A DNA stretch of 64,000 nucleotides from Eledone cirrhosa. Its lineage: Eukaryota. The position numbers and the translations under genes are program-made. The stretch spans positions 28,954,001 through 29,018,000 of the forward strand of contig OZ024751.1 in the NCBI GenBank assembly GCA_964016885.1, read 5' to 3'. Shown piece by piece: positions 3,713 through 53,955 of this stretch (its first letter is position 1; every line of letters begins with the position of its first letter). Below the pieces are notes generated by a model that did no database searches, was not told the DNA's origin, and saw only the letters and a program-made list of their open reading frames with translations.

Positions 3713-5194
3713 CATGTAAGACTGATATATTATTTTATAAACCCCTTGAAGGATGTTAGATCCATTAGTTCCTAGCAAGATTCAAGATTCAAGAACCCAG
3801 AACACACAGACACACCACCAGAAACATTTTTGGCAAAGTGGGGAGGAAGGTGTAATCACCTTTATTGGCTCCTAGTATTAGTTTACTGTGCTTTTTTTTT
3901 TGTTTGTTATTCACTGGTATTTATTTAGTTGTTAGCTTACAATCTCCCCACCACATCCCTGTAGGTCACTTTGTCTGGCTTCTACATACAGTGTAGTAGT
4001 GATGGTGGTAGTTGTAATGATCTAGTAGTAGTAGTGGTGGTGGTGGTGGTTTTAATGATTCAATAGTAATGGTGGTGGCAGTGGTGGTTGTAATGTTCTA
4101 GTAGTGATGGTGGTGGTGGGTCTTGTGGTCTAGTAGTGGTGGTGGTGGTAAGGGATCTTGTATTAATGGTGGTGGTGGGTCTTGTAGTAGTGTTAGTGGT
4201 GATGGTTGTAGTGGTGGTGGTGGTTTTGGTAGTCTAGTAGTAGTGGTGGTGGTAGAATTAGTGATGATAGTAGAAGTGATGGCGGTAGTTTTGATGGTTT
4301 AGTAGTAGTCATGGTGGTGGTAGTAGTATTGTTGATGGTGGTTTGAGAATTGGGAGAGAATTGGTTGGGGTAAAGGAGGGGGAAGAAGAAGGATCAAGGG
4401 TTTGGCTTTAGTTGGTTCTTTGATGGTTTCAGGGCCTACCACTTAACCTCTACTGTTGGTGGTGGTGGTGTGATGGGGATTGTGTGGTGGTGGTTGTTGG
4501 GGTAGTGGTTAGTGTTTATGATGATGGTGTTGGTGTGCTGATGGTTTTAGTTGTGATGGGGTTAGTGGTTGTGGTTGGTCATGTAGTGGTAGTAGTAGTT
4601 GTGGTTGGGATAATGTTTATAGTAATGGTGGTGGTGGTAATAGTTGTAGTGGTGATGGTGATGGGAGTAGTTGGGGGTGGTGGTAGTGGTAGTAGTAGTG
4701 GTGCTGGTGATGGGAGTAGTTAGAGTAGTGCTTATAGTAATGGTGGTGGTTGTACTGTTGTACTGATTTAATAGGTGTGGTTATTGTTGTGGTTTAAGCC
4801 CCAGGCCTTAGCATACATACAGTGTCAGTGTGTATGTTTAGATTTGCTATCATTTTTTTTTATATACTGTTTAGCTAGGGAGGAGGGACAGTGCCCAGCT
4901 TATGACCCTTTTCAGGTCTTTTGGGATTAGTTGGTGGGGTGGTTGGGAGGGAGGATATATTCCAATAGGAGACATGCCCTCTGTCTCTTCCCCTCCAGAA
5001 TCTTTGCAATAGAGTGGACTTCACTACCCCCTCCAAGGACAAGGTACCACTGTTAAACTGGACAACAGATTAAGTCTAACTACTCTAGCAGGCCACAGCA
5101 GAATTTGAACTCAGAATAGAAAGAATTGGAGCAAATTCTGCAAAACATCTCAACCATCAATTCTATCAATTTCACCAATCTTTGGCCCTTGAAT

Positions 5195-45055: not shown

Positions 45056-45086
<31 letters not shown>

Positions 45087-45089
<3 letters not shown>

Positions 45090-45268
45090 GTATTTCCGTG
45101 GGAAGGGTAAAGGAAAGGGGAGTGCTCTATGTATGCTACAGAGCTATTTAATTATGCAATAAACAACATAAGACAATTATTCCATTTACCAAAGGTTTCA
45201 TGAAGACAGGCGAGCTCAGCAGAGACGTCTGAAATCGTTCATCAGAATGAAAATTTAATATGGACGTA
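45087..45268 (-). mobile_element. Family A hammerhead-bearing short element in (TA)n
   Basis: Reverse complement of 45087-45199 aligns with 52513-52627; flanked by TA runs. Confidence 0.8.
45180..45252 (-). ncRNA. Type-I hammerhead ribozyme (GUA site, cut between 45187/45186)
   Basis: TTTCATT CTGATGA ACGA..TCAT GAAA CC-TTT-GG TA AATGGAA; core intact, stem I 7 bp, stem II with one mismatch near its base. Confidence 0.75.
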
Positions 45269-52075: not shown

Positions 52076-52337
52076 TAAATATATATGTATATATATATAA
52101 ATATATACGTATATATATGTAGATATTAAATGTATATATTGAGTTAGGAACTCAATATATAGATATACATTTATAAATATATATATATATATATACATAT
52201 ATATGTGTGCATGTATGTATATATATGTATACATACTACTGTACGTCTGTATACATATATGTATGTACGTATACATACTTATATTTAAGTAACAGCTGTA
52301 CTAAGAGTGAGAAATGAAATTTCGTTTCATTTTTTCC

Positions 52338-52393
<56 letters not shown>

Positions 52394-52400
<7 letters not shown>

Positions 52401-52627
52401 TGTAATAAACAACATAAGGCAATTATTTCATTTACCAGTGGTTTCTTAAAAGCAAAAAAATTTTGCTCTCAATCATCAGAATGAAAAAATCCTGGCGTAT
52501 TTATTGATGTTGGAAACCACTGGTAAATGAAATAATTGCCTTATGTTGTTTATTACATAACTATTAAGCTCTGTTACCTACATAGAGCACTCTTTTTTCC
52601 TGGACTTTTCCGACGGAATTACTTCAT
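52394..52627. mobile_element. Family A element with a perfect 52-bp inverted duplication
   Basis: 52394-52445 is the exact reverse complement of 52513-52564; body homologous to 45087-45199. Confidence 0.85.
52426..52486 (-). ncRNA. Type-I hammerhead ribozyme (GUA site, cut between 52433/52432)
   Basis: TTTCATT CTGATGA TTGAGAGCAAAA-TTT-TTTTGCTTTTAA GAAA CC-ACT-GG TA AATGAAA; core intact, 7-bp stem I, 12-bp stem II (atypical U10.1-A11.1). Confidence 0.8.
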
Positions 52628-52638
52628 TCATACATATA

Positions 52639-52670
<32 letters not shown>

Positions 52671-52679
52671 GATATATAT

Positions 52680-52739
52680 ATAGGAACGAGTAGGACCCCG
52701 ACGGCTGAGCTCAAGCCGTTTCGACGGCTAATTCTGGAC
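52680..52739 (-). mobile_element. Family B fragment (half-hammerhead arm only)
   Basis: Identical to 53830-53889. Confidence 0.85.
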
Positions 52740-53167
52740 CAGATGTACAGTAGTATGTATATATATATACATACATGCACACATATATATATGCACGTAT
52801 CGGTTTACCGAACATTTATTATAATGCTCGGTTTGTTTGTAATACAAACAAACAGCCCGAATTATGCCGTACAGTGTTTAGGCAACCACATCACCTTTTT
52901 GTTCAACACTGACACAGAAACGATGTACTAGTTTCAAGCTTATTAGCTATCGTCAGCATCGTATACCTTCCTGCTAGATGGTTGAACGACTGAAAGTATT
53001 TACTCTCCTTATGCATATTAACGGCTGAGCAGCCTAATTTGCATATCGAGTGAGTTCAGTCAGCCCAATGAATAAAAACCCCAAAGTGAAACCTCTTTTC
53101 CTTCTCCTGTGTATGTCTTTGTGGTATATTAATATTCCTGTATCTGAAGTTTGAAGCCTTTTCTTAG

Positions 53168-53750: not shown

Positions 53751-53955
53751 TAACGAAGGAAATGTGGTAAGGAACCAGGTAGACCATAACGTACCAAAGT
53801 ACTCAATACTTAGGGTAGTAGAGTGGGTAATAGGAACGAGTAGGACCCCGACGGCTGAGCTCAAGCCGTTTCGACGGCTAATTCTGGACGTCCAGAATTA
53901 GCCGTCGAAACGGCTTGAGCTTGAGCTCAGCCGTCGGGGTCCTACTCGTTCCTAT
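53751..53955 (-). mobile_element. Family B element with a 60-bp-arm palindrome and 3'-half hammerhead
   Basis: Palindrome centre GGAC|GTCC at 53889/53890; reads GACG..CGTC GAAA CGGCT-TGAGCTC-AGCCG TC GGGGTCC; flanked by (TA)n. Confidence 0.85.

What the first reader, a model, noticed from the sequence alone, without database searches (positions are those of the whole stretch)
52394..52627. Family A element: intact hammerhead inside an inverted duplication whose other arm starts exactly at GAAA
Seen: a perfect 52-bp inverted repeat (52394-52445 / 52513-52564). The minus arm continues into a full ribozyme whose 12-bp stem II has two non-Watson-Crick pairs that are G-U on this strand only (A-C on the other), which favours selection on the minus-strand RNA. 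The plus arm starts at the catalytic GAAA and carries only the substrate half. Established: inverted partial pLTRs are a hallmark of Penelope-like insertions. Inference: this is a young insertion, and a read-through transcript could fold either as the ribozyme or as a 52-bp hairpin that blocks it.
Basis: partly seen in the sequence, partly recalled or inferred. Interest (0 to 1): 0.75.

Follow-up and report, generated by a model that had tools for sequence, protein, structure and literature searches.

The report
Penelope retroelement stub with hammerhead
This is one of more than a thousand short, back-to-back footprints that a known kind of animal jumping gene leaves in TA repeats; its predicted self-cutting RNA is inherited from the parent element, and the start of the second arm at GAAA is likely chance, not a switch.

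Summary
The 52-bp inverted repeat and the type I hammerhead motif are real. The locus is an ordinary stub of a Hydra-clade Penelope-like element (PLE): two head-to-head copies of its pseudo-LTR end in a (TA)n tract, one ending at a fixed tail-less site, the other carrying a 63-69-nt tail. The genome holds 1,283 tailed and 1,569 tail-less ends, and full-length parents with a 710-aa RT plus GIY-YIG-like ORF. The special claims fail. The junction is unique, has a 2-nt microhomology, and 0 of 33 other adjacent inverted copies start at GAAA. One of the two G-U pairs is a rare substitution (4 versus 1,074 copies). With the second arm the hairpin wins by about 34 kcal/mol, so no two-state switch is predicted. 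A side result is more interesting: family arms pile up at fixed upstream sites with an extra untemplated G, as expected if both arms were copied from two internal start sites to the capped 5' end of a mostly uncut RNA. The scan reported the same kind of stub earlier on other DNA of this genome.

The parts
52341..52396 (.). (TA)28 target tract, left; its last 3 bases are shared with the element end
   Evidence: sequence; run measured
52394..52514 (-). Tail-less arm: pLTR positions -67 (or -69 with the microhomology) to +51, counted from the G of GAAA; carries the whole hammerhead motif
   Evidence: this end joined to (AT)n has 1,569 exact genome matches
52422..52490 (-). Type I hammerhead motif of the pLTR; short palindromic stem III; predicted cut at 52433/52432
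   Evidence: covariation across subfamilies; activity untested
52468..52468 (-). Rare A-to-G substitution that makes the second G-U pair in stem II
   Evidence: 4 versus 1,074 genome matches
52513..52514 (.). Head-to-head junction with a 2-nt microhomology; found once in the genome
52513..52564 (+). Tailed arm, part shared with the other arm (positions 0 to +51): the 52-bp inverted repeat
52565..52633 (+). PLE 'tail' (63-69 nt), present on this arm only; the parent ORF starts about 110 nt behind it
   Evidence: read-through into the tail has 1,283 exact genome matches
52568..52588 (+). 7-bp hairpin a few bases behind the tail-less end; candidate signal for RT initiation (inferred)
   Evidence: folds; lead from e1-8673755
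52634..52682 (.). (TA)n target tract, right; no target-site duplication can be read
45085..45262 (-). Older relative of the same pLTR (82% over 115 nt), hammerhead core kept, longer stem II

Best explanation
The locus is a short head-to-head insertion of the pseudo-LTR end of a Hydra-clade Penelope-like retrotransposon into a (TA)n tract, likely made when both target strands primed reverse transcription at the element's two internal start sites and the two copies were joined through a 2-base microhomology. Shown: identity with the pLTR of full-length RT plus GIY-YIG-like elements, the fixed outer ends (+51 and about +114 to +121), the variable inner junction, the TA target. Inferred: nicking of both strands and two cDNAs (by analogy with Poseidon_Ac in vitro). 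The tail-less cDNA ran 118-120 nt and so kept the whole hammerhead; the tailed cDNA stopped or was trimmed at about GAAA by chance. The hammerhead is a passenger from the parent. Alone it would be a weak monomer (3-bp stem III) of the kind thought to need a dimer or protein help; in a minus-strand read-through RNA the antisense arm is transcribed first and is predicted to lock it in a 52-bp hairpin.
For: Family: 974 first-look candidates, 40 scored. Full-length 710-711-aa ORFs follow this pLTR; L063 is 99% identical over 104 nt and L068 96% over 182 nt. Motifs RWK, DKT, CxCx5C, YRDD, CxxC, CxH are present and no cysteine lies between the GIY- and YIG-like words, as in the Hydra definition (PMC8557442 section 11). 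Geometry: 33 of 74 tailed ends have an exact tail-less end head-to-head within 10 kb, 0 in the other three orientations, 0.57 expected. Two cDNAs: the tail-less arm reaches further upstream than the tailed arm here and in 9 of 33 sampled copies, the reverse in 6 of 33 (differences of 6 nt or more); fold-back of one cDNA cannot give the first class. PMC11167929 (parts 1-2 of 4 read): both strands cut and extended, two RT start sites bounding the tail, hammerhead cleavage not needed for insertion in vitro.
Against: No read or contig spans this junction, so this copy rests on the assembly alone. Dual priming has been shown in vitro only for a Poseidon element, not for Hydra. PMC3846280 (passages) proposes self-priming on an antisense template for head-to-head PLE repeats; my data do not exclude an antisense RNA. 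The tail is 63-69 nt against the 30-40 nt in print. Pfam and PDB gave no useful match for the ORF, and no tree or fold was made; clade assignment rests on motifs and a by-eye comparison with Hydra-1_Obim.
Confidence: 0.9

Rival explanations
1. Selected RNA switch: the second arm starts at GAAA so that a read-through RNA toggles between ribozyme and blocking hairpin.
For: The arm does cover GAAA, stem III and the stem I 3' strand; without the arm the hammerhead fold has predicted weight 0.01-0.15.
Against: With the arm the weight is about 1e-24 (33.8 kcal/mol) and the blocker is 5' of the ribozyme. The start is not recurrent: 0 of 33; among 182 other arms the starts near 0 are scattered (-6, 0, +3, +4, +6, +7, +8). 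Any inverted copy that includes these bases would block equally.
Confidence: 0.02
2. Head-to-head form made by self-priming or template switching on one cDNA or on an antisense RNA, rather than by two target-primed cDNAs.
For: Proposed for rotifer PLEs (PMC3846280 passages); junction hot spots lie at near-palindromic sites (-79 to -72 and -50), and many copies have symmetric arms.
Against: Single-cDNA fold-back cannot give a tail-less arm longer than the tailed arm, as here and in 9 of 33 copies; untemplated bases lie between the arms in many copies.
Confidence: 0.05
3. A non-autonomous hairpin unit (MITE-like or retrozyme) that moves with its inversion intact.
For: Many genome hits cover the whole 233-bp query.
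Against: Junctions differ from copy to copy; this one occurs once; no tandem hammerhead array here; the sequence maps onto the pLTR of an ORF-bearing element.
Confidence: 0.01
4. Assembly artefact at this locus.
For: No read spans the junction; the stub sits between long TA tracts.
Against: Same anatomy with other junctions at dozens of loci; tail-less end followed by (AT)n in raw reads of three DNA runs (123, 110, 73 reads); the arms are asymmetric in a way a mirror artefact would not give.
Confidence: 0.02

Closest known systems
Hydra clade of C-terminal EN+ PLEs, e.g. Hydra-1_Obim (Craig et al. 2021, PMC8557442; section 11, passages and supplement rows seen)
   Same: Single ORF with RWK, DKT, CxCx5C, no CCHH, CxxC and CxH; (TA)n target; type I hammerhead near the 3' end with a palindromic ACCA-N-UGGU stem III and a non-G-C first pair in stem II (File S2 row); protein clearly alignable by eye with Hydra-1_Obim.
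   Different: Unit of about 4.25-4.3 kb because of a long microsatellite-like 3' UTR (Hydra described as generally under 3 kb); clear pLTR tandems, which the paper did not find for Hydra-1_Obim; thousands of stubs; tail of 63-69 nt.
Inverted 5'-truncated pLTR with one-sided tail in EN+ PLEs (PMC8557442 Fig. 2 legend; PMC3846280 passages)
   Same: Head-to-head arrangement, tail on one end only, microhomology or palindrome at the junction.
   Different: Here reduced to a 240-bp stub with no ORF sequence.
Poseidon_Ac internal RT initiation (Frangieh et al. 2024, PMC11167929; parts 1-2 of 4 read)
   Same: Two fixed ends that bound a tail; AT-rich target; hammerhead upstream of the start sites; template need not be cut.
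   Different: There the start sites lie inside the ORF; here both lie upstream of the ATG. Other clade; no biochemistry here.
Minimal and short-helix-III hammerheads of metazoan PLEs (Cervera and de la Pena 2014, PMC4209133; parts 1-2 of 4 read)
   Same: Type I topology, long helix II, palindromic helix III, opposite-strand pairs 100-700 bp apart already noted, low monomer activity expected.
   Different: No bulged base between positions 9 and 10.1 and U10.1-A11.1 in place of G-C in this subfamily; stem I is 10-11 bp.
L1 twin priming and cap-derived 5' G (PMC11702581, passages)
   Same: Inverted insertion from two primings; extra G where copying reaches a capped 5' end.
   Different: In L1 the second priming site is variable and the two pieces barely overlap; here both start sites are fixed and the arms overlap widely.

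Membership tests
Type I hammerhead ribozyme | Core CUGANGA, GAAA, A15.1-U16.1, H17 | tested here: met
Type I hammerhead ribozyme | Helices I, II, III form around the core and covary | tested here: met
   MFE fold; 8 related motifs: 78% of cells paired, 6 of 22 pairs with two-sided change, 1 of 500 shuffles as high; the rows are related and hand-picked, so this is not a probability
Type I hammerhead ribozyme | G10.1-C11.1 first pair of helix II (usual, not obligatory) | tested here: not met
   U-A here and family-wide; natural motifs with other pairs exist (PMC3088659 passage; Hydra-1_Obim row)
Type I hammerhead ribozyme | Match to an Rfam hammerhead model | tested here: not met
   none listed at E up to 10 over 52398-52630
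Type I hammerhead ribozyme | Self-cleavage | not testable with these tools
   needs an in vitro assay
EN+ Penelope-like element | [quoted passage not shown] | tested here: met
   by motifs, since Pfam gave no RT or GIY-YIG hit
EN+ Penelope-like element | Inverted 5'-truncated copy with a tail on one end | tested here: met
Hydra clade PLE | RWK and DKT motifs | tested here: met
   residues 37 and 114 of the L063 ORF
Hydra clade PLE | CxCx5C linker, no CCHH, CxxC and CxH around the conserved E and N | tested here: met
   residues 556, 659, 690; no Cys between VYE 576 and YVG 595
Hydra clade PLE | (TA)n target and canonical hammerhead | tested here: met
Hydra clade PLE | Generally shorter than 3 kb (descriptive, not diagnostic) | tested here: not met
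   unit 4.25-4.3 kb
Hydra clade PLE | Placement in the RT phylogeny | not tested
   reference proteins were seen only in a supplement; no tree built
Non-LTR retrozyme | Tandem short units each with a type I hammerhead, no ORF in the family | tested here: not met
   single inverted stub; the family has an ORF; definition from 10.64898/2026.07.22.740005, part 1 of 5 read

The most novel reading that the evidence does not exclude
The short inverted stubs of this family are not broken 3' ends but run-off copies of the 5' end of the mRNA: two RTs start at fixed sites (+51 and about +115) and copy one capped RNA, uncut by its hammerhead, to its first base, leaving an untemplated G on both arms. Thousands of genomic stubs would then map, base by base, the promoter starts, the two RT start sites and the in vivo cutting rate of the ribozyme for a Hydra PLE.
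Probability: 0.5. Interest if true: 0.5.

Novelty: new member of a known kind. Interest (0 to 1): 0.22.

Why it matters
The locus itself is ordinary. The family statistics bear on an open question: how PLEs make head-to-head repeats with a one-sided tail, and whether their hammerheads cut the template. Here 169 of 184 arms read through the cut site, and recurrent inner ends carry a cap-like G. If confirmed by 5'-end RNA mapping, a young high-copy Hydra family with intact ORFs would be a ready system to test dual priming outside Poseidon.

Tried and rejected
Rfam: only microRNA-like hairpin noise, no hammerhead. Pfam and PDB sequences: nothing useful for the ORF. No structure prediction was obtained. 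Sequencing runs: no RNA holder listed, which is no evidence on expression. Contigs of X1-X4 and reads or contigs of X5, X9-X11: nothing spans the junction; the rare base at 52468 appears in 0 of 19, 1 of 22 and 1 of 19 reads, so presence/absence could not be tested. One search had two helices typed one column off and is superseded. The downstream control is polluted by off-target matches at +10/+11 and was not used. Rejected: GAAA start as a designed feature, both G-U pairs as selection on this copy, a mobile hairpin unit, a retrozyme array, a pile-up of 5' ends at the hammerhead cut site (4 of 184 arms at +11 to +15). A search for a cap-derived G in Penelope papers found 0 papers (five terms required; one search listed nothing further); the library lacks most subscription papers, so this is weak. 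The scan's own index gave nothing for those words or for this sequence.

Full report
1. Observation. The arms 52394-52445 and 52513-52564 are exact reverse complements, 52 bp, not extendable. The minus arm continues into a complete type I hammerhead motif: stem I of 11 positions with one U-U mismatch, CUGAUGA, a 12-bp stem II with two G-U pairs, GAAA, a 3-bp stem III in a palindromic setting and GUA with the cut predicted at 52433/52432. The hammerhead fold is the MFE of 52420-52492 (z -1.95) but not of the longer 52410-52512. Rfam has no hammerhead match here. The stub lies between two TA tracts. Positions below are counted from the G of GAAA (0).

2. It is one of a large family. The own genome (3.0 Gb) gave 974 first-look candidates, 40 scored. 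Exact patterns found 1,283 ends that read into the tail and 1,569 tail-less ends joined directly to (AT)n at +51; reversed controls gave 0. I used 74 of the 100 listed tailed matches (those within the range of the other list, contig C1 up to 260 Mb) and the 100 listed tail-less matches: 33 of 74 have a tail-less end head-to-head within 10 kb, 0 in any other orientation, 0.57 expected by chance.

3. The parent. A fetched locus held an RT fragment; searching with it gave 150 scored matches of 42,114 candidates. In 18 fetched stretches the pLTR flanks ORFs of 710-711 aa from the first Met, in tandem units of 4.25-4.3 kb with a long microsatellite-like 3' UTR. L063 carries a pLTR end 99% identical to this stub over 104 nt, followed by an intact ORF. 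The protein has RWK, DKT, YRDD, CxCx5C, a GIY-YIG-like pair without cysteines between, CxxC and CxH, the diagnostic list for the Hydra clade (PMC8557442 section 11). By eye it aligns with Hydra-1_Obim, whose hammerhead has the same palindromic stem III (supplement rows). No tree was built, and Pfam and PDB were uninformative. The youngest subfamily, with near-identical ORFs, is only 88.5% identical to this stub; L063, L068, L071 and L073 are 96-99%.

4. The GAAA start is not special. I fetched the loci of the first 81 of the 100 listed tailed ends as 80 stretches. 33 of 80 have an inverted arm within 420 nt (one, L134, is doubtful; L078 and L079 look like one duplicated locus). Their outer ends fall at +51 almost without exception; their tailed arms start between -104 and +37, and 0 of 33 at 0 to +2. 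The window's junction has three equal placements owing to a GA microhomology and occurs once in the genome. With 60 further tail-less loci, 1 of 182 other arms starts within a base of GAAA, among scattered starts from -6 to +8.

5. The G-U argument. The G at 52468 is found in 4 genomic copies against 1,074 with A, and in 0 of 162 other sampled arms. It is the only private change in about 237 bases; the other differences are shared subfamily variants. So the copy is young in relative terms, and only one G-U is ancestral. Evidence for selection on the RNA fold comes from parent subfamilies: across 8 hand-picked motifs 6 of 22 pairs change on both sides and 1 of 500 shuffles reaches the covariation score; L040_b has a fully changed stem II and L040_c a changed stem I.

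6. No switch. With core and stems constrained, the hammerhead fold has predicted weight 0.15, 0.012 and 0.039 in three arm-free constructs and about 1e-24 with the second arm, a gap of 33.8 kcal/mol (nearest-neighbour model, no tertiary contacts). On a minus read-through RNA the blocker is made first. On a plus RNA there is no catalytic half. If transcribed, the likely product is a 52-bp dsRNA stem. Short-helix-III PLE hammerheads showed little or no monomer activity (PMC4209133), and the Poseidon one needed protein (PMC11167929).

7. Mechanism. Shown: two fixed outer ends, variable inner ends, TA target. From print: a Poseidon protein cuts and extends both strands and starts at two internal sites that bound the tail. 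Inferred: the same here, giving two cDNAs joined at their 3' ends. This locus is mildly informative: its tail-less arm holds 67 bases absent from the tailed arm, which fold-back of a single tailed cDNA cannot produce; 9 of 33 copies share that asymmetry and 6 of 33 have the reverse (four copies with a subfamily-related mapping ambiguity not counted in either class). An antisense template (PMC3846280) is not excluded.

8. Side result. Of 184 arms (139 loci plus the window; L079 dropped as a duplicate), 169 extend upstream across the cut site, 4 begin at +11 to +15 and 11 further downstream. Most templates were therefore uncut at this hammerhead; L176 and both arms of L184 begin at about +13 and may come from cut RNA. 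Inner ends cluster at -96, -79 and about -51. Among ends not covered by the partner arm, G precedes 25 of 52 ends between -114 and -45 but 3 of 29 further downstream (Fisher p 0.0006; 27 and 13 ambiguous rows and 63 long arms left out). At -79, 10 of 10 arms have G where the template has T, of which 4 could take it from the partner arm; at -96, 4 of 4 arms in 2 loci; background G is 0.148. At -51 one subfamily has a templated G, so that site is weak. In L086, L193, L100, L108 and L109 both arms stop at the same base. An extra G marks copying of a cap in L1 (PMC11702581). Cautions: sites were chosen after seeing the data, the two arms of a locus are not independent, the added sample of 60 loci contributed only 1 arm at -79 and 2 at -96, and -79 also borders a palindrome. 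The window's own arms stop at -67 and 0 and show no such G.

9. Reads. Nothing spans the junction, but raw DNA reads of three runs show the +51 end followed by (AT)n in 123, 110 and 73 reads, so that end type is real. Polymorphism at this locus remains untested.

10. Verdict. A real but ordinary PLE stub, a new member of a known kind. The scan has reported such stubs on other DNA of this genome. Supplements of the bioRxiv preprint were closed and those of the other papers, apart from PMC8557442, were not opened; they may hold related junction data.

Noticed in passing
L060 4075-4175; L058, L061-L067, L069, L072, L074, L075: Several young full-length units carry a second, diverged hammerhead-like copy about 400 nt after the ORF stop, with G at position 17 (a poor cut site by recalled rules) and homology ending near the tail-less site. 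It could serve as a dimer partner or be an old captured stub.
   Followed up: partly
L184 (both arms) and L176: Arms begin at about +13, the predicted hammerhead cut site: possible traces of a cleaved template in 2 of 139 loci.
   Followed up: partly
L086, L193, L100, L108, L109, L029, L034, L035: Arms stop at -96 or -79 with an extra G not in the template, often on both arms: cap-like signature.
   Followed up: yes
window 52680-52800 and 53830-53955: Another TA-associated repeat family abuts the stub on the right (1,122 first-look candidates); a palindromic head-to-head copy lies at 53830-53955, and a diverged piece of it sits inside the 3' UTR of the parent element (L068 about 4365-4420). 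The TA tract is a nest of insertions.
   Followed up: partly
window 52196-52243 and 52746-52790: The flanks on either side of the TA tract are themselves inverted copies of each other over about 45 bases.
   Followed up: no
window 52914-52968 (-), 57665 (-), 61082 (+): Further hammerhead-like motifs of other families; the first passed the stem filter, the other two only the core pattern.
   Followed up: no
L045 3960-4790: Tandem array of a roughly 57-bp piece of the pLTR joined to an inverted stub; possibly repeated template slippage.
   Followed up: no
L040, L042, L068 3' UTR: The parent's 3' UTR is 1.5-3 kb of TG-, TA- and TTTTTA-rich sequence, so the element spreads microsatellite-like DNA, including its own TA target.
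   Followed up: no
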